A model generated the notes under the pieces. The model was not told the origin of the DNA. It made no database searches and saw nothing but the letters and a program-made list of their open reading frames with translations. Positions 6,671-22,481 of a DNA stretch of 64,000 bases are shown here, one piece after another. Both the position numbers and the translations under genes were made by a program. Numbering within the stretch: the stretch's first letter is position 1; the number at the start of each line of letters is the position of its first letter. The DNA is taken from positions 47,710 to 111,709 of the forward strand of contig JAIUPL010000013.1 of NCBI GenBank assembly GCA_020160935.1, written 5' to 3'. The DNA is from Bacteroidota bacterium (GTDB lineage Bacteria; Bacteroidota; Bacteroidia; Chitinophagales; Saprospiraceae).

Positions 6671-6675
6671 CTTTG
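6668..6675 (+). promoter_or_regulatory. candidate -7 box (TAACTTTG) ahead of hsdR, overlapping the stop codon of the membrane-protein gene
   Basis: Matches TAnnTTTG, 39 nt upstream of ATG 6714. A TTG lies at 6642-6644. Confidence 0.25.
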
Positions 6676-6713
6676 TCCAGACTCCCCTACCCTGCACGCT
6701 ACCCAATCCAGCA

Positions 6714-9700
6714 ATGACGACCAATTTCTCCTATCTTCCCGAAGCATGGCAAGCGCTGGCCCGCACGGCCATCGAAGCCGAGCAACAGGTATATGCTGCG
6801 CCTATGTATGCGGCCATGCTGTGCCGCAAAAGCCTGGAGGAATGGATACGCTGGATATACGAACACGACGACGCGCTGGAAATGCCGCAAGACACCTCGC
6901 TCAATTCACTCCTGCACCAACAGGCTTTCAAGGAACTGGTAGCGCCAAGCCAGTTCGGCCAGATCAACCTCATCCGCAAAATCGGCAACAATGCGGTGCA
7001 TTCCAGTGTGCGCATCAAATCCGACGAAGCCCTGTATGCCGTCAAACTGCTGTACAACTTCACGGGCTGGGTAGTGCGGCTCTACGACGAGGCCGACCTC
7101 GTGGCGCCGCCCTTCAATACGGCCCTGGTGCCGCAGCCCGTTGCTGCCGACAAAAGCAAGGAAGAACTGCAAAAACTGGAAGCCGCCTACCTGCAATCGC
7201 AGGAAGCCTTGCAGCGCGTGCAGGCCGAACTCGATGCCATCAAAGCCGTCAAAGCCCGAAACCAGGCGTATGTGCCGCCGCCGCACGACCCCAATGAGGC
7301 CCTTACCCGACAATACTACATCGACGCGCTGCTGCGCGAAGCCGGTTGGGAGCCGGATGCGCCGCGTGTGCGGGAGTTCCCGGTGCAGGGCATGCCGACG
7401 GCACAGGGCGCCGACGGCACAGGCAGGGCCGATTACGTGCTCTGGGGCGACGACGGGCTGCCGCTCGCAGTGGTGGAAGCCAAACGCAGCCAGCACGACC
7501 CGCGCGTGGGCGCACACCAGGCCAAATTGTATGCCGATTGCCTGGAACGGGAATTCGGCCAGCGGCCCGTTGTTTTTTATTCCAATGGGTACGATACCTG
7601 GGTTTGGGACGACACCAGGTATCCGCCCCGCGCGGTGCAGGGGTTTTACACCCGCGACGAACTTCAGTCGCTCGTCCACCGCCGCTTCAGTCGACAGCCG
7701 CTGTCGACCGCGCCCATCAACGAGGCCATCACCGACCGATACTACCAGCAGGAAGCCATTCGGGCCGTCGGGGAAGCGCTGGAACAAAACCGCCGGGAAG
7801 TCCTGCTCGTCATGGCTACCGGAACCGGCAAAACGCGCGTAGCAGCCTCTATCATCGACGTGCTGAGCAAGGCAGGCTGGATAAAACGCGTGTTGTTTCT
7901 GGCCGACCGCAACGCGCTGATCCATCAGGCGAAAGTCAACCTGAACGAGTACCTCCCGCATTTACCCGCCATAGACCTGACAAAAGAAAAAGAAGACGAA
8001 AGCAGCCGCATCGTTTTTTCCACCTACCAGACCATCATCCACATGATCGATGGCGAATCGGAAGGTGGGCAGCGGAGTTACGGACCGGGGCATTTCGATC
8101 TGATTATTTTTGATGAAATACACCGAAGTGTGTACAACAAATACAAGTACATTTTCAGGTATTTCGACGGGATACGGCTGGGCCTTACCGCCACGCCCAG
8201 GGCCGAAGGCGACCGCGATACGTACGACCTGTTCGGCCTGGAGCCGCACAACCCGACCTATGCCTACGAACTGGAACAGGCTGTGAACGATGGCTTTCTG
8301 ACGCCGCCGACTGCCATTTCAGTGCCGGTGAAATTTCATCGACAGGGCATTCGTTACGCCGATCTGTCGGCAGAAGAGAAAAGGGCGTATGAAGAGCAGT
8401 TTGCCGACCCGATAACCGGGCAGTTTCCGGACGAGATAGATGCTGCGGCCCTCAACAAATGGCTGTTCAACGAAGATACCGTCGACAAGGTAATCGGCTA
8501 CCTTATGGAGCATGGCATCAAAGTGGAAGGCGGCGACAAATTAGGAAAAACCATCATTTTCGCCCGTTCGCACGAGCATGCCAAATTTATAGAAGGGCGT
8601 TTCAACAAGCAATATCCACAGTACGGCGGCCATTTTCTGAAAGTGATCGACTACCAGGAAGAATATAAGTACGACCTGCTGAATCAGTTTAAAAGCAGGG
8701 AAAAATTGCCGCAAATTGCCGTTTCAGTGGATATGCTCGATACGGGCATCGACGTGCCTGAAGTGGTCAATCTGTTGTTTTACAAGCCCGTACGCAGCAG
8801 CGCGAAGTACTGGCAGATGATCGGGCGGGGCACGCGCCTGTGCCCGGACCTGTTTGGCCCCGGCGACCACAAAAAGCGCTTTGTGATCTTTGATTTTTGT
8901 GAAAACTTCGAGTTTTTCGGCCAGCATCCGCAGGGTTTCAGCGGCAGCACCGGCAAATCATTGAGTCAGCGGATTTTCGAAACCCGCCTGAGGCTGGCGC
9001 AGGTATTGCAGGCAGAAACAGCGCCTGCTTTGCAGGAATACGCACAGCAACTGCTCGATCTGTTGATTGCTCAGACGCAGGCGCTCAACCGCGATAGTTT
9101 TATCGTGCGGCAGCACCTGCGCGTGGTAGAAAAATACAGTGATCCGCACCGTTGGAATGCGCTGGACGATCAGGATATGCGCGATATTTTTCGGGAAATC
9201 GCCCCCCTGGTGTCAGAAACCGGGCAGCATGAAATGGCCAAACGCTTTGATGCCATGATGTTCGACCTGCAATTGTTTTCACACGTAGGCGACAAGCGGC
9301 AGGCAGGCATTGTGAGGCAGGTGGCTGATATAGCAGGCCAACTGACCAAAAAAGGCTCCATCCCGGCCGTTGCGGAAAAGATGGATATGCTGCGCGGTGT
9401 TCATTCACAAGGCTGGGCTGCCGGGGCCGATGTTGTGGCTCTGGAGCGCATTCGACTCGACATGCGCGATCTGTTGCGATTTCTGGAGCCTTCGAGTCAG
9501 CCGCTGGTATATTCCACTTATTTAGATGCTTTTGAAAGCACTGCACAGGAACACACTTTATTGTACAAGGTGAACAACCTGGATGCGTACCGGCGCAAGG
9601 TGCAACAGTACATCCTCCAGCACGAACAGCACCTGGTGATTCATAAAATCAAAACGAACGTACCGATCACCCGCGCCGAACTGGCCGAACTGGAGCGGAT

Positions 9701-10049
9701 GTTGTTCGAACAGGGCGCCATCGGGACGCGGGAGGAGTTTGTACAGGCTTATGGAGATCAGCCGTTGGGTAAATTCATCAGAAGCATCATTGGTCTGGAT
9801 GCCAACGCGGCCAAAACGGCTTTTGCGGCGCTACTGCAAACGGGTCAGTTCAACAGTCGGCAAATCCGGTTTATCGACACGATCATCAATTCTTTTATTT
9901 CTCAGGGTATTGTGGAGCCGTCACGTTTGTTTGAGTCGCCGTTTACCGACCTGCATGCCCATGGATTGTCCGGTGTGTTTGATGCCTACACTTCCAGCAG
10001 GATTATTGAACTGGTAGAAAGCGTGAACAGGAATGCGGAGGTGGCGTAG
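6714..10049 (+). CDS. hsdR: type I restriction enzyme, endonuclease/helicase subunit R
   Basis: Nuclease-type motif ADYVLWGDDGLPLAVVEAKRS. SF2 helicase motifs LLVMATGTGKTR (I), DLIIFDEIHR (II), LGLTATP (III), QMIGRGTRL (VI). The helical N-terminus is DUF4145-like and the C-terminal region is typical of EcoEI-type R subunits. Confidence 0.93.
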   Translation: MTTNFSYLPEAWQALARTAIEAEQQVYAAPMYAAMLCRKSLEEWIRWIYEHDDALEMPQDTSLNSLLHQQAFKELVAPSQFGQINLIRKIGNNAVHSSVRIKSDEALYAVKLLYNFTGWVVRLYDEADLVAPPFNTALVPQPVAADKSKEELQKLEAAYLQSQEALQRVQAELDAIKAVKARNQAYVPPPHDPNEALTRQYYIDALLREAGWEPDAPRVREFPVQGMPTAQGADGTGRADYVLWGDDGLPLAVVEAKRSQHDPRVGAHQAKLYADCLEREFGQRPVVFYSNGYDTWVWDDTRYPPRAVQGFYTRDELQSLVHRRFSRQPLSTAPINEAITDRYYQQEAIRAVGEALEQNRREVLLVMATGTGKTRVAASIIDVLSKAGWIKRVLFLADRNALIHQAKVNLNEYLPHLPAIDLTKEKEDESSRIVFSTYQTIIHMIDGESEGGQRSYGPGHFDLIIFDEIHRSVYNKYKYIFRYFDGIRLGLTATPRAEGDRDTYDLFGLEPHNPTYAYELEQAVNDGFLTPPTAISVPVKFHRQGIRYADLSAEEKRAYEEQFADPITGQFPDEIDAAALNKWLFNEDTVDKVIGYLMEHGIKVEGGDKLGKTIIFARSHEHAKFIEGRFNKQYPQYGGHFLKVIDYQEEYKYDLLNQFKSREKLPQIAVSVDMLDTGIDVPEVVNLLFYKPVRSSAKYWQMIGRGTRLCPDLFGPGDHKKRFVIFDFCENFEFFGQHPQGFSGSTGKSLSQRIFETRLRLAQVLQAETAPALQEYAQQLLDLLIAQTQALNRDSFIVRQHLRVVEKYSDPHRWNALDDQDMRDIFREIAPLVSETGQHEMAKRFDAMMFDLQLFSHVGDKRQAGIVRQVADIAGQLTKKGSIPAVAEKMDMLRGVHSQGWAAGADVVALERIRLDMRDLLRFLEPSSQPLVYSTYLDAFESTAQEHTLLYKVNNLDAYRRKVQQYILQHEQHLVIHKIKTNVPITRAELAELERMLFEQGAIGTREEFVQAYGDQPLGKFIRSIIGLDANAAKTAFAALLQTGQFNSRQIRFIDTIINSFISQGIVEPSRLFESPFTDLHAHGLSGVFDAYTSSRIIELVESVNRNAEVA

Positions 10050-10084: not shown

Positions 10085-11983
10085 CTATCTTGTACTGTCT
10101 TTCGTTTCCAGGCTAAGCCTTATGGTATAGGCTGTCCAATCAGTCTGTTCCAGGTGTTGGCGTTTTGCATCGCTCCGTAAGTAAGGAAAATGAGCAGACA
10201 GACCTTTTTGAACAAAGGGTTCTGTATTTAATTCTCCTGTACAAATTACTACTTTTATATATTCATCCACGGCAGAAAGGTCTGGCAGATCGATACGCAG
10301 TGGGATGGTTCGGTACTGGTAATTTTCAAAAACATCGGTAGCCCAAACTTCTTGCCCTGGTTGCAATTCCTGTTTTGGAAGTAATGCATTACTAATCGCA
10401 AAATTACTGTCGAGGTATAACACCCCGATCCAGTATGGTTGTTGTCCCGTATTGCGAATTTTAAGTTGAAAGCCAGGTCTGGAGCCTCCCGGTGTGTAAC
10501 GGAAAAGGGCAATATCAGTCTGCCAGTCCACCAATTCGACAGGAGCATTGTCTGATTCGTTTCCCGGTTCGGTCACACGATACAATTCAATGGTAATGTC
10601 CGACTCCGGTATTCGGGTGTTGTGGTTTGACAGATTGAGCGTGTGCAGCCAGTTGGCTACTACTTCCAGTTTTTGAAGAAAAAATATGGCTGTTGTTGTA
10701 CCATACCCTTGTATGGGTTCAAAAAATGGCAGATCATGATGTGTTCTGCTCAAAAAGTATGTACCGTTTTTCGCGTGCACGAGACATTCTGCTTGCATAA
10801 CCATGCTACATAATTGAAACAGGTCAGAGCCACGGTTTTCTATTGCTGCTGTCAAAAAGGAAACCCCTTCGGAGTCGCTGCCGGAAGCAAATGCGATGTT
10901 GAGTTTGGGTTTGGCTCTCAGCCGGATTACGGCACCATAAGATCGTTTTGTATCATAGCCCTCCATGCCGCTTACGGCTGAATGATCTGCAAAAACGGTT
11001 TCAACGGTTACCAGGTGCTCGTCTTCCTGCAGTTGCAGCACTGTGGGGTTTCCCGGTTCGGAGGGCGGAATGCCATGCATTGCTCCTGCATGGAGTACCC
11101 AGCCAGCAGAGTGATCCCAGGATACCAGAAATGACGGGTGTTCGGACTCGATCTTACTAAACAAGAAACCCAGGTTTCGATCTTCCTGAAAAGTTGCATC
11201 CAGTTGTGGAGACTGTTGTCGGACTATATTCCGAATTCGTTGGCGAATGCGCTCCAACAGGTTATGATAGGAAATCGACGCGCCGGTATTTTCAAGCGCT
11301 TCTACGAGGCAATAAGTGAAAATCCCGCCCGGCTTGTCTACAATAGTTATTTCTTTGGCCAGTTCGGTATCACGTGCTGCTGCCAGGTGAACCCTACGTC
11401 CCATCGGCGGGCGCAAGGCGCCGTCTTTCATTTTTTTAAAATGGTCGATGCCCAATAATTCAGATGCCGGAACGGCCGGCCCAAACTCACGGATTAAACG
11501 AACCCCGGAGGCTGCATCATCGGCATGACGCATCCTACCCGAATGGCAACAATCCATGGTCGTAACAAAAGGCACATCAATATGCTTGGAAACGCTCCAG
11601 ATGAGGTAGGATAATTCTTTGTCCATAAGGTCATACCCATCGGGCTGCCGGCTGTCCCAGCAAACGATAGATTCCTGATAATGATCTGGTTCGAATTCCC
11701 AGAAGGCTTCCGGAGCAGCACACCGGGAGCCATGGCCGGAGAAATGAAACAAACACGCATCTCCAGCCTGTGCTTGCTGGAAATGATCGAAACCCTCGAT
11801 GATCGCCTGACGCCCGGCCGCCTCATTGGTCAATACGAGCGGATAAAAAACTACTCCCATACGAGTGCAGTACGTGTCCAGAAATTGATACATGCGCTCA
11901 ACATCATTTACACAACCGTTGAGGGCGTGTGCAGGATTGGGATACTGGTCGATGCCAACCAGCAGGGCATATAATGTAGGCAT
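10085..11983 (-). CDS. caspase-fold (peptidase C14-like) protein with a ~370-aa beta-rich C-terminal region
   Basis: N-terminus YALLVGIDQYPNPAHALNGCVNDV, catalytic His in FHFSGHGS, catalytic Cys in TMDCCHSGRM. The C-terminal part (QLKIRNTGQQPYWIGVLYLDSNFAIS) recalls the DUF4384-type domain often attached to caspases; this is recognition from memory. Confidence 0.85.
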   Translation of the reverse strand: MPTLYALLVGIDQYPNPAHALNGCVNDVERMYQFLDTYCTRMGVVFYPLVLTNEAAGRQAIIEGFDHFQQAQAGDACLFHFSGHGSRCAAPEAFWEFEPDHYQESIVCWDSRQPDGYDLMDKELSYLIWSVSKHIDVPFVTTMDCCHSGRMRHADDAASGVRLIREFGPAVPASELLGIDHFKKMKDGALRPPMGRRVHLAAARDTELAKEITIVDKPGGIFTYCLVEALENTGASISYHNLLERIRQRIRNIVRQQSPQLDATFQEDRNLGFLFSKIESEHPSFLVSWDHSAGWVLHAGAMHGIPPSEPGNPTVLQLQEDEHLVTVETVFADHSAVSGMEGYDTKRSYGAVIRLRAKPKLNIAFASGSDSEGVSFLTAAIENRGSDLFQLCSMVMQAECLVHAKNGTYFLSRTHHDLPFFEPIQGYGTTTAIFFLQKLEVVANWLHTLNLSNHNTRIPESDITIELYRVTEPGNESDNAPVELVDWQTDIALFRYTPGGSRPGFQLKIRNTGQQPYWIGVLYLDSNFAISNALLPKQELQPGQEVWATDVFENYQYRTIPLRIDLPDLSAVDEYIKVVICTGELNTEPFVQKGLSAHFPYLRSDAKRQHLEQTDWTAYTIRLSLETKDSTR

Positions 11984-12054
11984 TAATACATATTGTAATT
12001 TTTTGAAAAATATTCTGCAATTTAGCGCTGTGCAAAGTAAGATTGGAATAAAAG

Positions 12055-12129
12055 TATAGGTAGTACTGATTTTTTGGTAGGATGGATACGGGTTTTCAGG
12101 TAGTCAAAATGCGTCTTTTTAGGTAGTTT
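12055..12129. promoter_or_regulatory. four (A)GGTAG(T) direct repeats in the divergent intergenic region
   Basis: GGTAG at 12059, 12076, 12099 and 12122 (spacings 17, 23, 23 nt). Three share the context T-rich + AGGTAGT. The array lies between the caspase gene (-) and the metzincin gene (+). Confidence 0.35.
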
Positions 12130-12179
12130 ATTCACAGACACTGTATATGACTTTTGTCTGTAAAATAATAATAGTAGTT

Positions 12180-12965
12180 ATGAAAAAGAATAAACAAGGA
12201 ACGCCCCCACATGACCCCAAAAATATAGTATCACCTGGCCTGCTTATGGCTGGTGCTGAGAAATCTATTTCAATAACAAGGAGGGAATTTTCGGTAATGA
12301 CACTGGGGGCAATGAGTAGTCTCGCATTGCCAAGTTTATTAAGGAGTCAAATCACGTCGGGGACGGCACAGGCTTCGGGAACCAATAATATCATTCATTA
12401 TTATTTCCATGATTTCGGGAATTTGTCTGTTCTGATACTGGAAAGGGCAGTGAAGATTATGCTTGATAATATTTTTTCACCTTTCATTCTTGAAGAAGCA
12501 TACCGGATTGCCTCCCGTTGGTGTATGCAGGATGGGTATTGGAAAGCCTGTAAAATGAATTTGCAATCGCACTATACCCCCTGGGATCTTTTATCCTATC
12601 AGATCAAAACGCTGTCTGTGCAATCAGTACTACCTGATCTGCATTTTTATGGCATGAATAAAAAAAGTGATATAATGGGGCAAGGAGAACTGGGATGTGT
12701 AAAAATTATTTGGGTAGATCCCAATTGGGTAAGAATCAAAGGTCATTTTAAAGTACAAATTAACCGAAGGCAGTTCATGTATTCGACGGATCCTTTGGAG
12801 TGGGCTGCCGTCATCGTTCATGAAATGCTGCATAATTTAGGACACGCTCATCCGGACAATGATTATAGACTCGATTTTCAAATAATGGCTTTCGAGCAGG
12901 CGATGTATTACAGCGCAGATACTTCGATATACGGCCCGCTTCCTTCCGCCTGGGGTGGGTATTAG
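12180..12965 (+). CDS. Tat-signal metzincin-like zinc metalloprotease
   Basis: Twin-arginine motif ITRREFSVMTLGAMSSLALPSLL and zinc site HEMLHNLGHAHPD (HExxHxxGxxH). ATG 12180 is preferred within ORF 12147..12965. Confidence 0.7.
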   Translation: MKKNKQGTPPHDPKNIVSPGLLMAGAEKSISITRREFSVMTLGAMSSLALPSLLRSQITSGTAQASGTNNIIHYYFHDFGNLSVLILERAVKIMLDNIFSPFILEEAYRIASRWCMQDGYWKACKMNLQSHYTPWDLLSYQIKTLSVQSVLPDLHFYGMNKKSDIMGQGELGCVKIIWVDPNWVRIKGHFKVQINRRQFMYSTDPLEWAAVIVHEMLHNLGHAHPDNDYRLDFQIMAFEQAMYYSADTSIYGPLPSAWGGY

Positions 12966-13127
12966 AAACTGTTTTAAACCCCCTCACCGGCTGCAAAGAC
13001 TTGTCTTTTAAGGCTATATTTCATCCATTGATAAAGGAATAGGCCCCGCTATGCCACCAAAAATGAATCTCATCTATCCTTAAAATTCAAGCCTTTTCGC
13101 CTCGGCAGGGGTTTTAAAACAGTTTCT
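12964..13127. repeat. 164-bp element bounded by ~20-bp inverted repeats (MITE-like or long hairpin)
   Basis: agaaactgttttaaaccccc (12964-12983) pairs with ggggttttaaaacagtttct (13108-13127), complementary except for a 1-nt indel. It starts inside the TAG stop of the metzincin gene and ends 13 nt before ATG 13141. Confidence 0.7.
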
Positions 13128-13140
13128 TAACCTTTTCATC

Positions 13141-15975
13141 ATGGCAAAGTCAATTCGTAATCAACTAACTGCACACTTTCCTGCTAGCCATGCCTTCCTC
13201 GTTGGGGTACAGGATTATAGGTATGTTGCGCCCTTACAGACACCAGTCAATGACATAAAAAGCCTGGCGGAAGTACTTCAAATAGAGGCGCATGGTTTCC
13301 ACGTGCATGAACTGTTGATCAACCCGGAAAAGGAGGCGCTTGAAACTTATTTCGAAACAACCATCCCTGGCATTGTCAAGGAAAACGATCGGGTACTGAT
13401 CTATTTTGCCGGCCACGGAATTGCCATAGACGAAGCGGGGCAAACAGAACCGAAAGGGTTTCTATTACCCGTCGATGCACGCAGGAGCGACGAACATTCC
13501 TTCACTTCCATGGCATTTCTCAATATGTGCCTGCAAAAACTCCCCTGCCGGCATTTACTCCTTTTGCTGGATTGTTGCTTTGCAGGTTCCTTTCAGTGGG
13601 CAGTGGATCAAACAAGAGGTTATGGAAGAGATTCATTCTTCAAGACTATTTATCGGCAACGCTATGAATATTTTCTTCAGGAACCCGCATGGCAGGCAAT
13701 TGCATCATCAGCGTATCATCAACGCGCTTTGGATGTTGCCATCGATTATGCACTCGGGCAACGAGAAAAGGTGGGAGGGGCTCTCAACTCTCCTTTTGCA
13801 GAAACCCTTGTCGTGGCACTCAGAGATGGCGCAGGTGACCGCAGTCCCTCAGACGGTTTGATGACGGTATCCGAAATTTTTGCTTACCTACAGGATCAAT
13901 TGGTTCAGTTTAGTCATCTTCATATTCAAAAGCCGGTATTCTTTCCATTGCGGAATCACAGGCAAGGGGAATTTATTTTTCTCAACCCAAAAGTAAAATT
14001 ACACCTGGCAGATTATTCAGACGACTACAATCCCTACAGGGGTTTAGAGTCTTATGAACACCATCATCGCAATCTTTTCTACGGTAGAGACCGAGTGATT
14101 GAAGATTTAATGGAAGTATTAAACTACAATTCCCTGCTGATTGTCAGCGGTGATTCAGGCGCAGGCAAATCCTCTCTGGTCAGAGCCGGATTGATGCCAG
14201 AATTGGAACTGAGGGGATATCGCTTGCTCCATCCGATTCGCCCTGGTATGCATCCACTTGAGTCACTTGAAACTGCTGTGAAGGAGGCATCGGATAAACC
14301 CAGCGATCTTCCTTCTATTTTACTGGTCGATCAATTAGAAGAACTTGCGTCATCTTATGTTCAGGGTACAGAACGCACAGCATTTTTATCTTTTTTATCT
14401 TCTGAACTGGAACAACAAAGGTTTTTTCAAAAAATCATATTAACGGTTCGTTCCGACTTCGAGACTTTTTTCGAACAGTCGCCACTATCCCCCTACTGGA
14501 ACCGGACAGCCCGTTATCCCATACCCGGCTTTGAGTATGCTGAGTTGGAAGACATCGTATTATGCCCCATGCAAGAGCGATGTATCACATATGAAAAAGA
14601 CCTGACAGCACAGTTGATTCGGGAGGTTCAGAACAAGATCGGTGGATTGCCCTTGCTGTCATTTGCATTATTCGAATTATATGAGTGTTTTAAAGGGAGA
14701 AGGTTGAATGATGAGCACTTTCGTACCATTACGTGGAAAGATTATCAATCCACAGGTGGCGTAGTAGGTGCCCTGGAAAAACGCGCTGACCACATTTACG
14801 AACGTTTCGATGATATACACCGATCCGTTTTCAGGAAAGTCATACTCCGATTGGTGTCCAACGAGAACAGGGAATCTGGAAGACGAGTCCTGGCAGATGA
14901 AATAACCTATCGAAACTCTGAGGAAAATCAATGTGTTTCGCTTATTCTGGAAAGCCTCATTGATGCCCGCCTGCTGGTTACCGGCACCGACTACAGAGGC
15001 GATCGATTTATAGAACCCGCACATGATGCGCTGATACGTAGCTGGAACAGGTTGCGGTTGTGGATTGATGAGTTCAAGGATTACCTTCCATTACGGGATC
15101 AATTGATCGCCAAACTTACGGATTACCGGCAAAGCGGAGGGAAAGAAACCCTCCTGATGCACAACGATCCCAGGCTGGCGCAATTGGAAGACGTTCGAAA
15201 TAGACCGCAATGTTGGTACAATGCCCAAGAGGACGAATATGTACTTCAGAGTATTGCATGGAGGGAGAAGAAAAAGCGGGAGAACCGCAGAATTAGAGCC
15301 TATGTCTTCAGCGGGTTATCTTTTCTGTTATTACTGGCTTGTCTGTTTGGAATACAAAGTTTTATTGCCAATCAGGATTTGAAGGTTAAACAGATTTCTT
15401 TACAGCATGCCAACACTACCATTTTGAATCAACGCGACAGTCTGATACGGCGCGAATATGAAAACAACATCGCCAAAGGCCTGGAAGCGCAAAGCCAAAA
15501 GCGTTTTGTCGATGCGCTCAGTTCATTTCAGGAAGCAATCCAAAGGTGCCAAAACGACTCACTACTACTCGATAGTTTGCCCATAGCCCTTTCCTGTAGA
15601 AGCAGATGTCAGAAGTTGGCAGCAGACGACACCCGCTTTCAGGAATTATCGACCCAGGCAGAATCTTTGATAGCAAAAAACGATGATCGGGATCTGGGAA
15701 CTATTATCGAAATATACCGACAAAGCCTGCAGAAAGAAGTGGATGCCAGTTCAAAGGCAGTAATTGTAGAAAAAATCAGACAACTGGAAACCAGAAGGGA
15801 CCAGGCGTTCACCAAGACGATGGATATCGCTGCCGGAAGGGTACGAATCAACGAACCTTGCAGCGCTTTTTTCCTCTATCAGAAAGCGAATCAGATCAAA
15901 CCCGGGCAATCGGAAGCACTTCAAAAAATGCACGAATTAAAGAGTATGGCATTGAATTGCAAGGAACTTAAATAA
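13141..15975 (+). CDS. caspase-fold protease fused to a STAND P-loop NTPase, one TM helix and a helical/TPR-like tail
   Basis: Caspase dyad YFAGHGI / LLLLDCCFAGSF. STAND preamble NPYRGLESYEHHHRNLFYGRDR, Walker A SGDSGAGKSSLVRAGL, Walker B ILLVDQLEEL (nSTAND1-like pattern). TM AYVFSGLSFLLLLACLFGIQSFI near nt 15296-15366, then ~200 helical aa. Confidence 0.88.
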   Translation: MAKSIRNQLTAHFPASHAFLVGVQDYRYVAPLQTPVNDIKSLAEVLQIEAHGFHVHELLINPEKEALETYFETTIPGIVKENDRVLIYFAGHGIAIDEAGQTEPKGFLLPVDARRSDEHSFTSMAFLNMCLQKLPCRHLLLLLDCCFAGSFQWAVDQTRGYGRDSFFKTIYRQRYEYFLQEPAWQAIASSAYHQRALDVAIDYALGQREKVGGALNSPFAETLVVALRDGAGDRSPSDGLMTVSEIFAYLQDQLVQFSHLHIQKPVFFPLRNHRQGEFIFLNPKVKLHLADYSDDYNPYRGLESYEHHHRNLFYGRDRVIEDLMEVLNYNSLLIVSGDSGAGKSSLVRAGLMPELELRGYRLLHPIRPGMHPLESLETAVKEASDKPSDLPSILLVDQLEELASSYVQGTERTAFLSFLSSELEQQRFFQKIILTVRSDFETFFEQSPLSPYWNRTARYPIPGFEYAELEDIVLCPMQERCITYEKDLTAQLIREVQNKIGGLPLLSFALFELYECFKGRRLNDEHFRTITWKDYQSTGGVVGALEKRADHIYERFDDIHRSVFRKVILRLVSNENRESGRRVLADEITYRNSEENQCVSLILESLIDARLLVTGTDYRGDRFIEPAHDALIRSWNRLRLWIDEFKDYLPLRDQLIAKLTDYRQSGGKETLLMHNDPRLAQLEDVRNRPQCWYNAQEDEYVLQSIAWREKKKRENRRIRAYVFSGLSFLLLLACLFGIQSFIANQDLKVKQISLQHANTTILNQRDSLIRREYENNIAKGLEAQSQKRFVDALSSFQEAIQRCQNDSLLLDSLPIALSCRSRCQKLAADDTRFQELSTQAESLIAKNDDRDLGTIIEIYRQSLQKEVDASSKAVIVEKIRQLETRRDQAFTKTMDIAAGRVRINEPCSAFFLYQKANQIKPGQSEALQKMHELKSMALNCKELK

Positions 15976-15989
15976 CCCATTTATCTGAC

Positions 15990-18900
15990 ATGAAAACAAT
16001 TTGTATTGCCCTTTGCCTCCTGTCCGTAATGTCCGGCGGAAACGTATTGCACGCCCAATGTGCAGAACCCCAGAATAATAACGATGTCTGTTTCAGCCTG
16101 TGTGGCCCCGATAACGAGCCATGCATGTGCCGGTGCATTATGAAACGGGCTTACACACTTCTGGCAAAAGATTCGGTATACGTTGCTTTCAGCCTGTTTG
16201 CTCATGTAGCCGCAGCATGTAATGACCTCAGGGCAGCCGCTGTCATGGACAGCATGGTTCAAAACGTACGAGCCTGGAAATATAACGGCAATAGATATGC
16301 TATTTCAACAATTGAAGGGCGCGAAATCACCCCTTACATCTATACCAATCCAGCCAAGTTTATGTATGGCTATGCAATTGTTGAAGAAGACGGTCGATAT
16401 TATATTGTAGATAAAAACGGGAAAAAAATAAATGCTTCGGAGGCATATAAGAGCATTTTACCTATGGAACATGGCGCTTACTGGCTTACACCTCTGAACA
16501 ACGACGCAAACAGGGAAACGGACAAAATTGCACCGGCCAAGAATCCTTCGAAGATTATTTATAGCCCGAGTCTGGATCAGGCATTTGCAGGTCCGGAAGA
16601 AATGGCGGTATTTACGGACATGATTGCCGACAGTAAGTATGATACCATTTTCGGGCCGTACAATGGTACTGTGATCACCCGATATAAAGGCAAATACGGT
16701 ATTATCGATAAAAAAGGAAAGGAAATTAGCCCACCCAGATACGATGCGGTCGGTGGAGTATTTGATAACAGGCGATCGTGCATGGAAGGAAAAAAATTCG
16801 GGTTTCTGAAAGGAAATGGTTTGCCAGCCATAAAAATGTCATATGATACCGTATTGAATTTCAGCAATGCCCTGGCAGCAGTGCGTAAAGACGGGCTTTG
16901 GACTTACATCGACACCTCCGGAAGGCAAAAAATCACGGAAGTATTTGAAGCAGCGGATTATTTTATATATGGTTTTGCTTGGGTAAAGAAAAACGGCAAA
17001 TGGGGTATGATCAATACAGATGGCGTTTTTGTCGTACCGGCGAAATATGACAATTATCAGCCATGGTTTTATGGCCATTTGGGAGGGAGCATTTCCGACA
17101 GAGCCACTGTAAAAGACTCCACATTCAGCCTTTTCAGGTGGAGAGACAAAGTTGTAACTGTGGAAGGAAATGAAGTTTTTGAATTCCGGGATGGAATTGC
17201 TCTGGTGGCTACGGTAATTGGGTCTTTTTATGAAAATGGCAATCAATATTATTTTATCGATACAACCGGAAAAAGGCTTTTCGGAAAAGTATTCGACGAG
17301 GCGGTTAGTTTCAGTGAAGGCAAGGCTGCCGTATTTATCAACAACGAATGGATGTATATCAATACCAAAGGCGAACCTCTTTTTAAATTAAAACTTGATA
17401 AAAATGGTATTGAACTTGCTATTGCGGGTGAGTTTCATGATAATCGGGTACAAATAAAGCATCATTTACAGTCTACCTTTTTAGACGAGAACGGGGAAAC
17501 AATTATCCCATGGGTCTATTACCAAAACGATATTCGGCAGGGAGATCAAATTTGGATAAAAGAATCTACCCTTGATACTCCCTTCTGGCGATTGTACGAT
17601 TTAAATAGTGGCAAACTGATAATCGATGAAAAATATCAGGAAATAATGCGTGAAAGTGAAGGCTTGACCTGGGTAAAAAGGGACAACAAATGGGGCATCC
17701 TAAATCGACAGGGAGTAGAAGTACTGGAACCAACGTATGACATGCCATTCTATGGTAATTATGACAATTATGACTATTCATTCAAAGGTAGCCTGGCGCT
17801 TGCGCAGGCAGGAAGCGAATGGTGGTTTATTGACCCAGAGGGGAATTCCGTGCTCTCGCAATTATTTAAAATCAACATTGATTCGCCAAGGAACGATAGT
17901 GTAATCCCTTACAATGAAAACGGACTTTACGGATTTAAAAATGGTTACGGGAAGTGGTTGATAAAGCCATCCTTCCACTACCTCGATTTTACTCGCTTCA
18001 ACGATCGGGAACTCGGCATTACGGTTGTTGTAGATAGATTGGGAAAAGTTGGCATCGTTGATTCGCGAGGGCAACTCATCGTAGAACCCAGTTTCAAACA
18101 AATCGGCGATTTCAGGGAGGGTATTGCCATTGTCATCAGCCCGGAAGGGAAGCATGGATACATCCGTTTAGACGGCTCTGTTTTGGTAAACCCGCAATAT
18201 GCATCTGCCACCGATTTCAGCAATGGAGTGGCCTGGGTTTCAGATTTCAACAACAGATGGGCCTTGATAGAAAGTGCTTCAGGAAAAAGAATAACAGAGT
18301 GGAATGAGTATGAATTTGCTCTTGCTTTTAGCGACAGTGTTTCCATCATCCGCGTAAAATACAACTGGAGAATAACGGACCGTAAAGGGAAGATTATGCC
18401 AACCTTACCACTTGACTACGATCAAATACAAGCGTTCAGTGATGGTTATGCAGCAGTCTTGAAAAACGGTCGATGGGGATACATCAACAAACAGGGCGAA
18501 CTGGTTATACCGTGGCAATTTGATGATGCATCTGATTTCAAGGAAGGTATTGCAGTAGTTAAAACATCCTCAAGTCAATTCCGCTTCCTCTGCAAAAACG
18601 GAAAATTTCTTACACAGGTGTCTTATTCTTATGCTACGCCCTTTTTTAAGGGCTATGCAGTCGCTGCTATTACAGAGGCGAATTACGATAAGAAGTTCGG
18701 TATGATTGACCGAAACGGCAAGACTGTCTTTGATTTCATTTATGACAAGATAGAGTTTGTGGGTGATTACATTCTGACTACTGCCGGCTCTAAATGGTCC
18801 ATTTACGATTGTAATCTAAAGGAACTTATTTTACCCGTCATCGACCATTTCATGCCGATTGGGAAAGACATGGTACTCTTAGGATCAAAAGGTAAAATGG

Positions 18901-19148
18901 GAGTGCTCTATGTCAACGAACACAAGATTATCGCTCCCCGCTACGATGACCTTGCGCAAATCAGCGATGCCTATGTAATGGTGCGTCAAAACGGAAAATG
19001 GGGCTGGGTAGACCACAATGATTCAGAAATAATTCCGTGCCGATTTGATGCTGCCACACCTTTCCGCAATCATAAGGCACTGGTATATGTATTCGGCATG
19101 CGCATACAAATCAATGAAAAAGGCGAGATGGCATTTCCTCGCTTCTGA
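15990..19148 (+). CDS. secreted WG-repeat (KWG-type) protein, 1052 aa
   Basis: Signal peptide MKTICIALCLLSVMSGGNVLHAQ. Many ~35-40-aa repeats carry the motifs KWGMINTDG, KWGILNRQG, RWGYINKQG, KWGWVDHND, KYGIIDKKG, KFGMIDRNG and F.EG.A.V. Confidence 0.85.
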   Translation: MKTICIALCLLSVMSGGNVLHAQCAEPQNNNDVCFSLCGPDNEPCMCRCIMKRAYTLLAKDSVYVAFSLFAHVAAACNDLRAAAVMDSMVQNVRAWKYNGNRYAISTIEGREITPYIYTNPAKFMYGYAIVEEDGRYYIVDKNGKKINASEAYKSILPMEHGAYWLTPLNNDANRETDKIAPAKNPSKIIYSPSLDQAFAGPEEMAVFTDMIADSKYDTIFGPYNGTVITRYKGKYGIIDKKGKEISPPRYDAVGGVFDNRRSCMEGKKFGFLKGNGLPAIKMSYDTVLNFSNALAAVRKDGLWTYIDTSGRQKITEVFEAADYFIYGFAWVKKNGKWGMINTDGVFVVPAKYDNYQPWFYGHLGGSISDRATVKDSTFSLFRWRDKVVTVEGNEVFEFRDGIALVATVIGSFYENGNQYYFIDTTGKRLFGKVFDEAVSFSEGKAAVFINNEWMYINTKGEPLFKLKLDKNGIELAIAGEFHDNRVQIKHHLQSTFLDENGETIIPWVYYQNDIRQGDQIWIKESTLDTPFWRLYDLNSGKLIIDEKYQEIMRESEGLTWVKRDNKWGILNRQGVEVLEPTYDMPFYGNYDNYDYSFKGSLALAQAGSEWWFIDPEGNSVLSQLFKINIDSPRNDSVIPYNENGLYGFKNGYGKWLIKPSFHYLDFTRFNDRELGITVVVDRLGKVGIVDSRGQLIVEPSFKQIGDFREGIAIVISPEGKHGYIRLDGSVLVNPQYASATDFSNGVAWVSDFNNRWALIESASGKRITEWNEYEFALAFSDSVSIIRVKYNWRITDRKGKIMPTLPLDYDQIQAFSDGYAAVLKNGRWGYINKQGELVIPWQFDDASDFKEGIAVVKTSSSQFRFLCKNGKFLTQVSYSYATPFFKGYAVAAITEANYDKKFGMIDRNGKTVFDFIYDKIEFVGDYILTTAGSKWSIYDCNLKELILPVIDHFMPIGKDMVLLGSKGKMGVLYVNEHKIIAPRYDDLAQISDAYVMVRQNGKWGWVDHNDSEIIPCRFDAATPFRNHKALVYVFGMRIQINEKGEMAFPRF

Positions 19149-19171
19149 CATAATTATTTATCCCTTTTCGT

Positions 19172-20044
19172 ATGAAGAAGCACCTGATCTCTTTTATACC
19201 GGCCGTACTATGCCCTATATGGGTTGTTTTTGTATGTTTTACTGGCGGGCGCACTATATTCTCCTACCCCAAAAATGCAGCGGATCCTTGCGCATTTAAC
19301 GTTACTAACAACGAGTGGCGCTTAAAACGTGTTTATAAGAATGAGTTGGTATCCGCTGGAGAAAAGGTCAAATCGAATGTTTTTCAGGAACGTTATCCTT
19401 ATTACAAATTTATCAGAATCCTGCTCAACAGAAATGATGTTCCGTGGGAACTCGAATTATACAACAACCTGGAAGGAACAAGCAATCCATCCAGTGCGGT
19501 CGAAATAGATACAAATGCGGAGGAATGGGTTTCTAAAATAGGTTTTGACACCATTAAAAAAGGAGCAAATACTTCCGTCTACGGGAAAAGAAGTGGCTGG
19601 ATTGGTTTTGAATTTTACTTTCCGCTGGATTACTTTTCTCAAATTCTGGATAATCCCAAACATGTGCTGGAATTCAGGAACCTGAGAGACATGTCTGCCC
19701 CGTACAACAAATTCAGATGGAATTCAGCCAGTTTAAGGTTTGAACTCACTGGCCGCGATACAATGTATATAAAAATCGACAAGCAAACCAAAGCATTTCC
19801 GGTATATGTAATCCAGCAAACCTTGCGGGGTAATGGCTCCGAAGAAAACTCCTCATGTAAACAAGTTGTTGAGATCGATCGTACTTACCGGGTATTGGAT
19901 TGCCGGGATGCGCCTTTTATTCTTCAGGCAGAAGAATATTCTGATCAATATTGCGACAACTCTTCTCCTCATACTATATGCCGGTGCCCAAGAGGAAGTA
20001 CAGACTATCGCGCCTCCAAAATCACAGAAATTTTCCCAAGGTAG
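19172..20044 (+). CDS. hypothetical protein with N-terminal signal/anchor
   Basis: ATG lies 23 nt after the WG-repeat stop. Hydrophobic N-terminus LISFIPAVLCPIWVVFVCF. Cys-rich C-terminus. No recognisable domain. Confidence 0.55.
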   Translation: MKKHLISFIPAVLCPIWVVFVCFTGGRTIFSYPKNAADPCAFNVTNNEWRLKRVYKNELVSAGEKVKSNVFQERYPYYKFIRILLNRNDVPWELELYNNLEGTSNPSSAVEIDTNAEEWVSKIGFDTIKKGANTSVYGKRSGWIGFEFYFPLDYFSQILDNPKHVLEFRNLRDMSAPYNKFRWNSASLRFELTGRDTMYIKIDKQTKAFPVYVIQQTLRGNGSEENSSCKQVVEIDRTYRVLDCRDAPFILQAEEYSDQYCDNSSPHTICRCPRGSTDYRASKITEIFPR

Positions 20045-20184
20045 CACTTTCATCTACCAGATTCCCGGTATATCAATTGCTGGTATTTAAGGATTTCCTG
20101 CACGTATGCCTCCCACGAACTTTGCACCAGGGTTCAGCACCCTTGGGAGCCCCAGTCTCCTTTCACTTGTAAAAACTTAATACC

Positions 20185-21321
20185 ATGAGAAAACACTGCA
20201 ACCCTGGCATGATGCCGTTAAAAGCCCTTTTCCTGTCTATATGTTTAGTTCATTGCGATATCGGCGACAAACTCGACCAGGGTATTGACCAGTTTCGCAT
20301 TTTTCGCGAACAATCTATTTTCGAGATCAACAGCGCGTCCAACCGGATATCCAGCGGTATCGGCGACCTGAATTCGACACTGGAAGATCTGGGGCAAAAA
20401 CTGCCACCTGAAATTCACAAAACCCTCAGTTTTGATGTGCCTTTTATCATCGATGCCGTAGCCGGAGAAGGCATCAGTGCCGGCCTTTGCTTCACCGATG
20501 CCGCTACCAGCAAGGCATTGTACCTGCTGGATCTGATGAAGTCAGAGATTATTACAGGCGAGCCGGTGCCTTTGCCCGCTCCTTTTATCTGCCATACGTC
20601 GGTATCGGCCATCAACCTGAACCAGGACAGGAACCAGCGCGATATCCTCGAATTTACAGGTTACAACCTGTTCCTGAATCGTGGTTTTACCGCTTCGCTG
20701 TTCAATGCCGCAGGCGACAGTTTGCCTATCCCTGTAGGTCGACCAACCAATTATCGGGTAGCCGCCAATATCAGCGATCTGGACGACAATACCCTTTCGC
20801 AGTATAAAGAACTCTCGCTTTTCTTTGAAGGCACACCTATTTCTTCCCTGTTTGTTGTGAAAAAACACGAGGTGCCGCCGGTCGTCAAATTTCAGAACCC
20901 GCGCGTGGTTCCAGGTATGATCGCCGCCTATCCATTCAGTTTTTCCGATGACCGCAACTTCAGAGAAGACTGTTTGGTATCCGTATCTATTTCTTTCGGC
21001 AATACCCGGAAAAAAGCCTGGGTCGATATGAACGTTATCGTCGAAGAACTGACAGGTGATGGTAAAACGTATGCTGTCGGTCAATCCGACCGTAACTACT
21101 ACTACACCGCCCCTCCAGGCTGGCATATCAAAAAACTTGACGGCCAGCGCGCTTATGATTATCATTCCTATAAGGATATTACAAACGAGGACGATGTGCG
21201 GTATCCTTTGTTTGGCCAAATCACCATTAAAGCCAAAAACTCCATTGCAGGCGCTACGACGAGTGCGCTCATGAGTTTTGGCCCTAATGTTCCTGATATC
21301 GTACTTGAATCCGGCGACTAA
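20185..21321 (+). CDS. hypothetical lipoprotein-like protein
   Basis: N-terminus MMPLKALFLSICLVHC has a lipobox-like end. The alternative start is ATG 20209. No recognisable domain. Confidence 0.55.
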   Translation: MRKHCNPGMMPLKALFLSICLVHCDIGDKLDQGIDQFRIFREQSIFEINSASNRISSGIGDLNSTLEDLGQKLPPEIHKTLSFDVPFIIDAVAGEGISAGLCFTDAATSKALYLLDLMKSEIITGEPVPLPAPFICHTSVSAINLNQDRNQRDILEFTGYNLFLNRGFTASLFNAAGDSLPIPVGRPTNYRVAANISDLDDNTLSQYKELSLFFEGTPISSLFVVKKHEVPPVVKFQNPRVVPGMIAAYPFSFSDDRNFREDCLVSVSISFGNTRKKAWVDMNVIVEELTGDGKTYAVGQSDRNYYYTAPPGWHIKKLDGQRAYDYHSYKDITNEDDVRYPLFGQITIKAKNSIAGATTSALMSFGPNVPDIVLESGD

Positions 21322-21349
21322 TAAACCTCATCACCAAAAAGCATTGATA

Positions 21350-22249: not shown

Positions 22250-22303
22250 AAACTCCTCAATGGCTACGTTTCAATGCACATTACTTTTTTGTTCAACTCC
22301 CAT

Positions 22304-22463: not shown

Positions 22464-22481
22464 AACTACACTTATTTCAAC

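What the first reader, a model, noticed from the sequence alone, without database searches (positions are those of the whole stretch)
13141..15975. Caspase-STAND NTPase whose sensor repeats are replaced by a TM helix and an extracytoplasmic helical tail
Seen: one 944-aa ORF joins four parts. First, a caspase fold with an intact His/Cys dyad (YFAGHGI, LLLLDCCFAGSF). Second, a STAND P-loop module with the preamble NPYRGLESYEHHHRNLFYGRDR, Walker A GDSGAGKSSLVRAGL and Walker B LLVDQLEEL. Third, a single hydrophobic helix (AYVFSGLSFLLLLACLFGIQSFI). Fourth, a ~200-aa helical/TPR-like tail. Established: this NTPase pattern (nSTAND1-like, from memory) is normally followed by cytoplasmic WD40/TPR sensor arrays. 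Caspase/CHAT-STAND fusions are computationally predicted NTP-dependent conflict or cell-death systems with almost no experimental characterisation. Inference: here the trigger would be sensed across the membrane, giving an outside-in activated death protease. I do not know this variant architecture as described.
Basis: partly seen in the sequence, partly recalled or inferred. Interest (0 to 1): 0.8.

Follow-up and report, generated by a model that had tools for sequence, protein, structure and literature searches.

The report
Membrane-spanning caspase-STAND receptor with split sensor
This gene encodes a death-protease/NTPase switch anchored in the inner membrane, which is normal for its family; what looks undescribed is that its large outside sensor seems to be made as a separate secreted repeat protein from the next gene.

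Summary
ORF 13141-15975 (+) encodes 944 aa: a caspase domain with an invariant His/Cys dyad, a full-length nSTAND1 NTPase, one strong hydrophobic helix (aa 720-742) and a 202-aa helical tail.

The helix does not replace the sensor repeats. About 85-90% of relatives carry a helix at the same offset after the NTPase, including forms with WD40, TPR, LRR or FGE-sulfatase domains. The positive-inside rule places those arrays outside the cytoplasm. A 2020 review already proposed this outside-in topology for cyanobacterial orthocaspases, and a 2025 preprint mentions "transmembrane STAND ATPases".

The part I could not find described is the gene layout. The gene 14 bp downstream encodes a 1052-aa signal-peptide WG-repeat protein. 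A locus only 32-36% identical keeps the same order. The best database homologue of the WG protein also follows an nSTAND1-TM-tail gene. In sister loci, secreted WD40 proteins in that position align collinearly with the ectodomains of fused relatives.

Best reading: a split, trans-envelope NLR-like receptor. The tail would dock a periplasmic co-receptor, and NTPase oligomerisation would then activate the caspase. A conserved second caspase (10085-11983, -) is a candidate substrate. The topology is well supported; the docking and the biological role are inferred.

The parts
13141..15975 (+). Whole gene: caspase-nSTAND1-TM-tail protein, 944 aa
   Evidence: ORF list. The identical protein is in NCBI as 'MAG: caspase family protein [Bacteroidetes bacterium]'.
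13189..13911 (+). Caspase (Peptidase_C14) domain, aa 17-257. The catalytic His92 is at 13414-13416 and Cys145/Cys146 at 13573-13578.
   Evidence: Pfam E 2.9e-14. H92 and C145/C146 are invariant in 114 sequences. Foldseek matches MALT1 paracaspase and metacaspases, E about 3e-9.
14032..15144 (+). nSTAND1 NTPase module, aa 298-668. Walker A is at 14149-14175 and Walker B at 14317-14343.
   Evidence: PF20703, 276 bits, full model length. Invariant GxGKS and R437/D439. Foldseek matches ORC/Cdc6-type AAA+ folds.
15145..15297 (+). Conserved helical juxtamembrane linker, ending in the polybasic stretch WREKKKRENRRIR
   Evidence: L672, W673, P677, L679, N694, E697, F700 and S704 are at least 90% conserved. 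There are 8 K/R in the 15 residues before the helix. AlphaFold runs a single helix from 695 onward, pLDDT above 90.
15298..15366 (+). Single transmembrane helix, aa 720-742
   Evidence: Kyte-Doolittle 2.23. The position is conserved in 95 of 105 homologues and 94 of 110 loci.
15367..15972 (+). Predicted periplasmic tail of 202 aa, helical and degenerate TPR-like, with 5 Cys. The C907...C940 pair is also present in the L096 orthologue.
   Evidence: AlphaFold helices. Weak TPR_1 hit. Only 16 weak relatives among 1.84 billion representatives. Cys positions and the L096 tail.
15990..19148 (+). Candidate split sensor: secreted 1052-aa protein with a signal peptide (cleavage ..LHA|Q), a six-Cys N-terminal module and 13 WG repeats. 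It starts 14 bp after the stop of the caspase-STAND gene.
   Evidence: Pfam WG_beta_rep E 4e-93. N-terminal sequence. L096 has an orthologue in the same position, 32% identical over residues 25-1049. The best database homologue, P0122, lies 8 bp downstream of an nSTAND1-TM-tail gene.
19172..20044 (+). Exported 290-aa protein of unknown function; third gene of the conserved block
   Evidence: 33% identical to the 270-aa gene in the same position in L096. Signal-peptide-like N-terminus and a conserved C-terminal Cys motif.
12147..12965 (+). Upstream exported protein with a metzincin-type zinc motif (HEMLHNLGH) and a Tat-like RREFS signal
   Evidence: 57% identical to the gene directly upstream of P0002 in L002. 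L096 has a non-homologous SP-HEMGH protein in the same position. There are no Pfam or PDB hits, so the peptidase assignment rests on the motif only.
10085..11983 (-). Partner caspase, 632 aa: a metacaspase-like domain plus three C-terminal beta and alpha/beta domains, with no signal peptide. Divergently oriented.
   Evidence: Pfam and the PADLOC 'caspase' model. Full-length homologues lie within 8 kb of the caspase-nSTAND1 gene in 26 of 70 genome loci, 20 of them upstream on the same strand. AlphaFold pLDDT 89.

Best explanation
The protein is a single-pass inner-membrane member of the caspase-nSTAND1 family, which is NLR-like. The caspase and the NTPase face the cytoplasm, and the C-terminal 202 residues face the periplasm. 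This topology is the family norm.

This gene belongs to a Saprospiria (Bacteroidota) subgroup in which the large extracytoplasmic repeat sensor is no longer fused. It is made instead as a separate Sec-exported protein from the next gene. Here that protein carries WG repeats; in sister loci it carries WD40 or LRR repeats.

Proposed mechanism, marked by level of support:
- The short, Cys-containing, TPR-like tail acts as a stalk or docking site for the ligand-bound co-receptor (inferred).
- Binding clusters the transmembrane helices, which are continuous with a conserved juxtamembrane helix (inferred).
- Clustering allows nucleotide-dependent oligomerisation of the STAND modules on the inner face of the membrane (established for STAND NTPases in general).
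- The N-terminal caspase is then activated by induced proximity (shown for the soluble caspase-STAND KrAvs12).
- The caspase cleaves cytoplasmic targets. The conserved neighbouring 632-aa caspase is a candidate downstream protease (inferred).

The biological role is probably conflict or regulated cell death, triggered by an envelope or extracellular cue.
For: Topology:
- Hydrophobicity 2.23 with 8 versus 2 flanking K/R.
- The helix sits at a fixed offset in 95 of 105 homologues, with no second hydrophobic segment in any, and is present in 94 of 110 loci across at least six phyla.
- A SPOR domain, a peptidoglycan-binding module of periplasmic proteins (established knowledge), and an SH3_3 domain lie after the helix in relatives.
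- AlphaFold models one continuous helix 695-804.
- A Cys pair in the tail is present in both the window protein and its L096 orthologue.

Catalytic competence: the dyad and Walker residues are invariant.

Split sensor:
- The gap to the SP-WG gene is 14 bp.
- The signal peptide ends ..A|Q, fitting the Bacteroidetes Q-rule (PMC5837995).
- L096/L097 keep the order metzincin-like, caspase-nSTAND1-TM-tail, WG, 270-aa gene at only 32-36% identity.
- P0122, the best WG homologue among 5.8 billion proteins, directly follows a 646-aa nSTAND1-TM-tail gene.
- In L001, L002, L003 and L005 (and in L004 and L006-L008, which repeat L003 and L005) and in L039 and L157, a signal-peptide repeat protein follows the short-tail gene.
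- Those WD40 proteins align collinearly with the post-helix region of fused homologues, for example L001ds2 63-802 against P0030 694-1459, 37% identical, E 1e-158.

Mechanistic precedent: the caspase-STAND KrAvs12 cleaves EACC1 on activation (PMC12642450).

Partner caspase: conserved neighbour in 26 of 70 loci.
Against: - No direct test of topology, and no dedicated TM predictor was available.
- No evidence that the tail binds the WG protein. Complex prediction could not be run.
- An HMM built from the Cys-bracketed hairpin at the N-terminus of the secreted WD40 proteins does not hit the tails or the window WG protein.
- Some short-tail relatives (L036, L047) have no downstream secreted gene.
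- A close fused relative (P0006, 48% identical) lacks the helix, so the repeats can apparently also work in the cytoplasm.
- Part of the synteny, among Saprospiraceae loci 47-57% identical, could reflect relatedness alone.
- PADLOC finds no known defence-system model beyond a generic caspase.
- NCBI annotates the WG gene from Met51, without the signal peptide. ENA, JGI and Logan call the long form, and homologues conserve the Cys-rich region upstream of Met51.
Confidence: 0.55

Rival explanations
1. The sensor repeats were lost and replaced, and the helical tail is itself the whole extracytoplasmic sensor of a stand-alone outside-in death protease. The neighbouring genes are unrelated.
For: The tail is a degenerate TPR-like domain, and TPR domains can bind ligands. 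Short-tail relatives without a downstream secreted gene exist (L036, L047).
Against: The helix is the family norm, not a replacement. Gene order with a secreted repeat protein is kept at 32-36% identity, and also around a caspase-less nSTAND1-TM-tail gene. Secreted WD40 neighbours are homologous to the fused ectodomains.
Confidence: 0.2
2. The helix is only a membrane tether. The protein senses a cytoplasmic or membrane-proximal cue through its STAND helical domains, the tail is structural, and nothing is transmitted across the membrane.
For: Characterised bacterial STANDs sense cytoplasmic phage proteins (PMC13581612; PMC12642450). P0006 is a close relative with no helix.
Against: Fused relatives place 400-1400 residues of classic ligand-binding repeats or lectin-like domains after the helix, which is hard to explain for a mere tether. 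The juxtamembrane helix is conserved and continuous with the TM helix.
Confidence: 0.15
3. Same molecular device, but the role is not anti-phage defence. It would mediate developmental or kin-related regulated cell death, or envelope-stress signalling, in filamentous Saprospiria, tied to the nearby two-component system.
For: The family is concentrated in multicellular or filamentous lineages such as cyanobacteria, Chloroflexota, Saprospiraceae and Myxococcota. A TPR-HisKA_3 kinase, a LuxR-type regulator and a PG_binding_1 outer-membrane protein are syntenic in Saprospiraceae loci. No known defence model matches.
Against: A type I restriction-modification system lies directly upstream, at 796-10049, which is typical defence-island context. 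The synteny with the two-component genes is seen only among fairly close relatives and is absent from L096.
Confidence: 0.25
4. The hydrophobic segment is a buried helix of a soluble protein, and the whole protein is cytoplasmic.
For: No dedicated predictor or experiment was available.
Against: Kyte-Doolittle 2.23 over 19 residues with a polybasic N-flank. AlphaFold places it in a 110-residue continuous helix, which cannot be buried. It is conserved as the only such segment after the NTPase. A SPOR domain lies beyond it in a relative.
Confidence: 0.03

Closest known systems
Transmembrane cyanobacterial orthocaspases (p20 - AAA_16/NACHT - TM - WD40; e.g. Ava_0039, Ava_3079) as discussed in J Exp Bot 2020, PMC7475262
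   Same: Same order of modules and the same predicted topology: cytoplasmic caspase and NTPase, one TM helix, extracytoplasmic C-terminus. The same outside-in activation idea is proposed there. Cyanobacterial relatives of the window protein, 33-37% identical, carry the helix.
   Different: Those proteins have large fused WD40 ectodomains. Here the ectodomain is a 202-aa TPR-like tail, and the repeats (WG, not WD40) are on a separate secreted protein. I did not check whether the named Anabaena proteins fall in Pfam nSTAND1.
nSTAND1 conflict systems (Kaur, Iyer, Burroughs, Aravind 2021, PMC8195603; Pfam PF20703)
   Same: Full-length nSTAND1 NTPase with an N-terminal caspase effector. The C-terminal region is variable and includes FGE-sulfatase in relatives.
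   Different: That description treats the C-terminal lectin or repeat domains as sensors of invader molecules and does not mention a membrane helix. There is no EAD adaptor and no DGR here.
KrAvs12-EACC1 (a caspase-like protease fused to a STAND ATPase, which cleaves a pore-forming effector), PMC12642450
   Same: A caspase-STAND fusion whose protease is switched on by sensor engagement. It provides the experimental precedent for the activation step. The same paper lists 'transmembrane STAND ATPases' among protease-linked sensors.
   Different: KrAvs12 is soluble and senses a phage tail connector in the cytoplasm. There is no EACC1 or Pepco gene next to the window gene.
Apaf-1/apoptosome and animal or plant NLRs
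   Same: STAND NTPase logic: ligand-driven oligomerisation activates a caspase by proximity (established knowledge).
   Different: This is a different STAND clade, with no NB-ARC or NACHT match above threshold. The caspase is fused rather than recruited. The sensor side is predicted to be outside the cytoplasm, a topology more like Toll-like receptors with their co-receptors.

Membership tests
Peptidase C14 (caspase/metacaspase/orthocaspase) | Caspase-hemoglobinase fold | tested here: met
   Pfam PF00656 E 2.9e-14 at aa 17-257. Foldseek top hits are MALT1 and metacaspases, E 3e-9 to 1e-7.
Peptidase C14 (caspase/metacaspase/orthocaspase) | Catalytic His-Cys dyad | tested here: met
   H92 and C145/C146 are present and invariant in 114 homologues.
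Peptidase C14 (caspase/metacaspase/orthocaspase) | Proteolytic activity and P1 specificity | not testable with these tools
   Needs enzyme assays.
nSTAND1 (Pfam PF20703) | Full-length match to the family model above the gathering score | tested here: met
   276.1 bits against a cut-off of 27.1, model positions 1-377 of 379. Other STAND models (nSTAND3, nSTAND6, AAA_16) fall below their cut-offs.
nSTAND1 (Pfam PF20703) | Walker A GxxGxGKS and Walker B hhhhDQxEE | tested here: met
   GDSGAGKSS at 337-345 and ILLVDQLEE at 393-401. These residues are invariant or at least 90% conserved.
nSTAND1 (Pfam PF20703) | NTP-dependent oligomerisation switch | not testable with these tools
   Inferred from the STAND superfamily.
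Transmembrane orthocaspase class (p20-NTPase-TM-extracellular domain) | One TM helix between the NTPase and the C-terminal region, N-in/C-out | tested here: met
   Kyte-Doolittle 2.23 with 8 versus 2 flanking K/R. Conserved position. AlphaFold helix 695-804. No dedicated TM predictor or experiment.
Transmembrane orthocaspase class (p20-NTPase-TM-extracellular domain) | Fused extracellular WD40 (or other large repeat) domain | tested here: not met
   The tail is 202 aa with only a weak TPR hit. The repeats are on the next gene product.
EACC1 two-gene system (Kaur 2020, System 4) | A 5' gene encoding EACC1 | tested here: not met
   No such ORF in 11950-13200. The upstream 272-aa product has no Pfam hit.
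Avs / known anti-phage STAND systems | Match to a curated defence-system model | tested here: not met
   PADLOC gives only a generic 'caspase' model (E 1e-14) and weak PDC-M26A and mad8 hits.
AP-ATPase/NB-ARC (Apaf-1-like) or NACHT | NB-ARC or NACHT NTPase signature | tested here: not met
   Neither family is reported at E up to 0.01 for the window protein.

The most novel reading that the evidence does not exclude
A two-protein, trans-envelope NLR-like receptor. A Sec-exported repeat protein (WG, WD40 or LRR) captures a periplasmic or extracellular ligand and docks onto the short TPR-like ectodomain of a membrane-spanning STAND NTPase. The NTPase then oligomerises and fires a cytoplasmic caspase, possibly starting a cascade through the conserved partner caspase. 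This would be a bacterial counterpart of receptor plus co-receptor immune signalling. It would also imply that a large branch of bacterial NLR-like proteins surveys the envelope rather than the cytoplasm.
Probability: 0.4. Interest if true: 0.75.

Novelty: new variant of a known kind. Interest (0 to 1): 0.5.

Why it matters
Bacterial STAND/NLR-like immune proteins are currently treated as sensors of molecules inside the cell. This locus, and the survey it prompted, show that in the caspase-nSTAND1 branch the ligand-binding repeats almost always lie beyond a membrane helix. They are therefore predicted to face the periplasm.

In one Bacteroidota subgroup those repeats have been detached into a separately secreted protein. 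If that holds, it gives a genetically tractable two-part system (receptor and co-receptor genes side by side) for asking two questions. How is a signal passed across the membrane to a STAND switch? What envelope-level cues (phage entry, wall damage, neighbour-derived signals) trigger caspase-type cell death in multicellular bacteria?

The finding also corrects an annotation: the start of the WG gene.

Tried and rejected
1. Shared docking hairpin. By eye the tail seemed to contain the same Cys-bracketed TPR-like hairpin (C-x29-C, 'CY..L...G......Y..AINKYLAALNC') that opens the secreted WD40 neighbours. An HMM of that hairpin recovered only the secreted proteins, a 63-aa mini-gene in L005/L006 and a 919-aa protein in L009. 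It did not recover any caspase-STAND tail or the window WG protein. The shared-module idea is dropped.

2. EACC1 or Pepco effector next to the gene: none found.

3. PDB sequence search with the whole protein: no hit. The upstream 272-aa protein gave only chance-level hits, so its metallopeptidase nature rests on the HExxHxxGxxH motif alone.

4. Foldseek on the 632-aa partner caspase returned only caspase-domain matches. Its three C-terminal domains remain unassigned.

5. The promoter and terminator scan was uninformative: promoter-like counts were at shuffle level, and the sigma-70 consensus does not suit Bacteroidota.

6. A metagenome scan with the single protein found nothing. The repeat scan with an alignment returned only relatives 30-44% identical, not the close short-tail clade.

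8. The hypothesis that the tail is a widespread domain is rejected. There are 16 weak hits in 1.84 billion representatives, and only one has the same architecture.
Full report
**1. What is there**

The window holds a 944-aa ORF at 13141-15975 on the + strand. Pfam finds a caspase domain at aa 17-257 (E 2.9e-14). It also finds a full-length nSTAND1 NTPase at aa 298-668 (276 bits, cut-off 27.1, model positions 1-377 of 379).

In an alignment of 114 homologues the caspase His (H92) and Cys (C145/C146) are invariant. So are the Walker A residues (G340, G342, K343, S344) and R437/D439. The Walker B residues D397/Q398/E400/E401 are at least 90% conserved. The identical protein is in public databases as a 'caspase family protein' from a Bacteroidetes MAG.

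The hydrophobic segment at aa 720-742 averages 2.23 on the Kyte-Doolittle scale over 19 residues. The next non-overlapping peak in the protein is 1.36. Eight K/R lie in the 15 residues before it and two after.

AlphaFold2, run with 58 homologues, gives pLDDT 83 and pTM 0.73. The caspase and STAND parts are confident. One uninterrupted helix runs from 695 to 804 and contains the segment. A helical tail follows at 826-943 with moderate to low confidence. Foldseek matches the model to paracaspase and metacaspase structures and to ORC/Cdc6-type AAA+ structures.

**2. The helix is the family norm, not a replacement**

The homologues say otherwise.

- Among the 120 best database hits, 105 have the conserved EPAHDAL motif and at least 140 residues after it. 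Of these, 95 show a hydrophobic peak of at least 1.6 at a nearly fixed offset (median 92 residues, 5-95% range 88-98).
- They average 6.7 K/R in the 15 residues before the peak and 2.4 after. None of 97 has a second such segment further on.
- The set includes forms whose post-helix region is WD40 (for example Lewinella cohaerens, P0022), TPR (P0020), LRR plus a WG-like repeat (P0055) or FGE-sulfatase (P0008).
- In 160 further loci from one-genome-per-species and metagenome collections, 94 of 110 evaluable genes have the helix. They come from Bacteroidota, Cyanobacteria, Chloroflexota, Acidobacteriota, Burkholderiales, Myxococcota and others.
- Of 83 complete helix-bearing genes, 63 have more than 320 residues after the helix, 12 have 121-320 and 8 have 120 or fewer.
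- One relative ends in a SPOR domain and another in a bacterial SH3 domain. SPOR is a peptidoglycan-binding module of periplasmic proteins (established knowledge). This independently places the post-helix region outside the cytoplasm.

This sample covers caspase-fused relatives of the window protein, not all nSTAND1 proteins. Doré et al. predict some nSTAND1 proteins to be cytoplasmic. One close relative, P0006, lacks the helix.

**3. The concept is already in the literature**

A 2020 review of cyanobacterial orthocaspases describes proteins with a p20 domain and AAA_16/NACHT on the cytoplasmic side, a TM helix and an extracellular WD40 domain. It proposes that an external death signal activates the cytosolic protease, possibly starting a cascade (PMC7475262).

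A 2025 preprint lists 'transmembrane STAND ATPases' among sensors fused to defence proteases. It also shows experimentally that a soluble caspase-STAND (KrAvs12) cleaves the pore-former EACC1 once its sensor is engaged (PMC12642450).

The paper that named nSTAND1 does not mention a membrane helix (PMC8195603). Outside-in activation is therefore neither a new idea nor a new architecture, and caspase-STAND fusions are no longer uncharacterised.

**4. What is special here: the sensor appears to be split off**

The next gene (15990-19148, 14 bp downstream) encodes a 1052-aa protein. It has a canonical signal peptide (MKTICIALCLLSVMSGGNVLHA|Q), a six-cysteine N-terminal module and 13 WG repeats. 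The Gln after the predicted cleavage site fits the Bacteroidetes Q-rule (PMC5837995).

NCBI annotates this gene from Met51, which removes the signal peptide. ENA, JGI and Logan call the long form. Homologues conserve the Cys-rich stretch upstream of Met51. The long start is therefore preferred.

Three independent lines link this gene to the caspase-STAND gene.

(a) Conserved order at low identity. The only protein in 1.84 billion representatives that shares both the architecture and an alignable tail is P0242. In its locus (L096/L097) the order is: SP-HEMGH protein, caspase-nSTAND1-TM-tail, WG protein after a 26-bp gap, then a 270-aa exported protein. The identities to the window proteins are 36%, 32% (over residues 25-1049) and 33%.

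(b) The best WG homologue has the same neighbour. P0122, only 23% identical, is the best homologue of the WG protein in the 5.8-billion-protein collection. It lies 8 bp downstream of a 646-aa stand-alone nSTAND1 protein, which has a polybasic stretch, a TM helix at 473-491 and a 154-aa helical tail. Two caspase genes lie next to it. A similar nSTAND1-TM-tail gene in L091 is followed by signal-peptide LRR proteins.

(c) Secreted neighbours match fused ectodomains. Relatives 35-55% identical with 97-225-residue tails occur in L001, L002, L003 and L005 (L004 and L006-L008 repeat the L003 and L005 loci) and in L039 and L157. In each, the next gene overlaps or follows within about 40 bp. It encodes a signal-peptide protein with WD40 propellers. 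These proteins align collinearly with the entire post-helix region of fused homologues: L001ds2 63-802 against P0030 694-1459 (37%, E 1e-158), and L002ds2 19-800 against P0030 652-1455.

The simplest reading is gene fission. The ectodomain became a separate exported protein, and the membrane protein kept a short helical stump.

Counter-examples exist. L036 and L047 have 101-residue tails and no downstream gene on the same strand. Forms with 250-300-residue tails carry small globular ectodomains instead.

**5. The tail**

The 202 residues after the helix have only 16 weak relatives. These are mostly multi-TPR proteins matched in several stretches. The tail gives a sub-threshold TPR_1 hit at residues 779-806. 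It contains five cysteines. The C-terminal pair, C907 and C940, is also present in the L096 orthologue.

I tested whether the tail shares the Cys-bracketed hairpin that opens the secreted WD40 proteins. An HMM of that hairpin finds only the secreted proteins, a 63-aa mini-gene and a 919-aa protein in L009. It finds none of the tails. A docking role for the tail is therefore an inference from position and TPR-like character, not a result.

**6. Other conserved neighbours**

Partner caspase. The 632-aa caspase on the opposite strand (10085-11983) has no signal peptide. Its confident AlphaFold model (pLDDT 89) shows a metacaspase-like domain plus three further domains. Full-length homologues lie within 8 kb of the caspase-nSTAND1 gene in 26 of 70 genome loci. 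Twenty are upstream on the same strand, several only tens to a few hundred bases from the caspase-nSTAND1 gene. They occur in cyanobacteria, Chloroflexota, Acidobacteriota and Bacteroidota. This makes it a candidate second-tier protease.

Metzincin-like proteins. The upstream 272-aa ORF carries HEMLHNLGH and a Tat-like signal and is 57% identical to the gene upstream of P0002. L096 has an unrelated signal-peptide HEMGH protein in the same place.

Saprospiraceae-only synteny. A 378-aa protein (80% identical), a PG_binding_1 outer-membrane protein (55%), a TPR-HisKA_3 kinase (44%) and a LuxR-type regulator (53%) are syntenic in the L005 loci (L005-L008). They are absent from L096, so I treat them as weak evidence.

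Defence context. A type I restriction-modification system lies directly upstream at 796-10049.

**7. Mechanism and confidence**

- Topology (cytoplasmic caspase and NTPase, periplasmic tail): about 0.85.
- The downstream WG protein is a functional partner or co-receptor: about 0.55.
- Activation by ligand-driven clustering of the TM helices, STAND oligomerisation and proximity activation of the caspase: inferred from STAND biology and the KrAvs12 precedent.
- Role in conflict or abortive infection rather than developmental cell death or envelope-stress signalling: undecided.

**8. Verdict**

The finding is real and ordinary in its headline feature. The TM caspase-STAND is the family's standard design, and the outside-in idea has been published. 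It appears to be new in one respect: the short TPR-like ectodomain paired with a separately secreted WG, WD40 or LRR protein. I found no description of this in the searchable literature. I classify it as a new variant of a known kind, of moderate interest.

Noticed in passing
window 15990-16139: NCBI's record starts the WG-repeat gene at Met51 (1002 aa), which removes a canonical signal peptide and a six-Cys module. That module is conserved in the L089 and L096 homologues. ENA, JGI and Logan gene calls use the 1052-aa form.
   Followed up: yes
L089 4742-7992; L091 16312-19598 (-); L003 1638-5311 (-): A caspase-less sister architecture. A 645-646-aa nSTAND1 protein has a polybasic stretch, a TM helix and a 150-170-aa helical tail. 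It is preceded by an overlapping gene (437-450 aa of unknown function, or a 578-aa CHAT protease). The three upstream proteins have similar-looking C-terminal regions (for example LSLSPLIIDQSVFT..TPEIYYY), judged by eye only. In L089 and L091 it is followed by signal-peptide WG or LRR proteins.
   Followed up: partly
L005 15691-15882 (also L006 7676-7867): A 63-aa gene encodes only a signal peptide plus the Cys-bracketed hairpin found at the N-terminus of the secreted WD40 proteins (hairpin HMM E 7e-19). It lies directly after the WD40 gene.
   Followed up: no
P0006 (1455 aa, JGI metagenome): This is the closest fused WD40 relative (48% identical over the caspase-STAND part). It lacks the transmembrane helix, so TM-bearing and TM-less forms coexist within a close clade.
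   Followed up: no
window 796-10049: A type I restriction-modification system: HsdM 796-2301, HsdS 2298-3494, HsdR 6642-10049. An ABC-type ATPase gene (4218-5525) and a 380-aa gene with no Pfam hit (5528-6670) are inserted between hsdS and hsdR.
   Followed up: partly
window 26507-28867 (-): A 786-aa protein with eight Tectonin repeats (E 8e-152) and a weak reprolysin-like metallopeptidase hit. It is another repeat-plus-metzincin protein close to the locus.
   Followed up: no
window about 12000-30000: G+C content is 43-48% across the caspase-STAND neighbourhood, against 52-57% on either side. This may mark an island or a compositionally distinct block.
   Followed up: no
window 29843-34207 (-), 40361-51298 (-), 36194-40339 (-): Two large proteins with type IX secretion C-terminal sorting domains, one of them 3645 aa with ten Calx-beta domains and GEVED domains. 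There is also a 1381-aa hybrid two-component regulator (Reg_prop/Y_Y_Y-HisKA-REC-AraC). The secretion-tail proteins are consistent with a Bacteroidota chromosome.
   Followed up: no
window 20542-21219 (-): A 225-aa antisense ORF gives BLAST hits in related loci only because it overlaps the conserved 378-aa gene on the + strand. It is very likely not a gene.
   Followed up: partly
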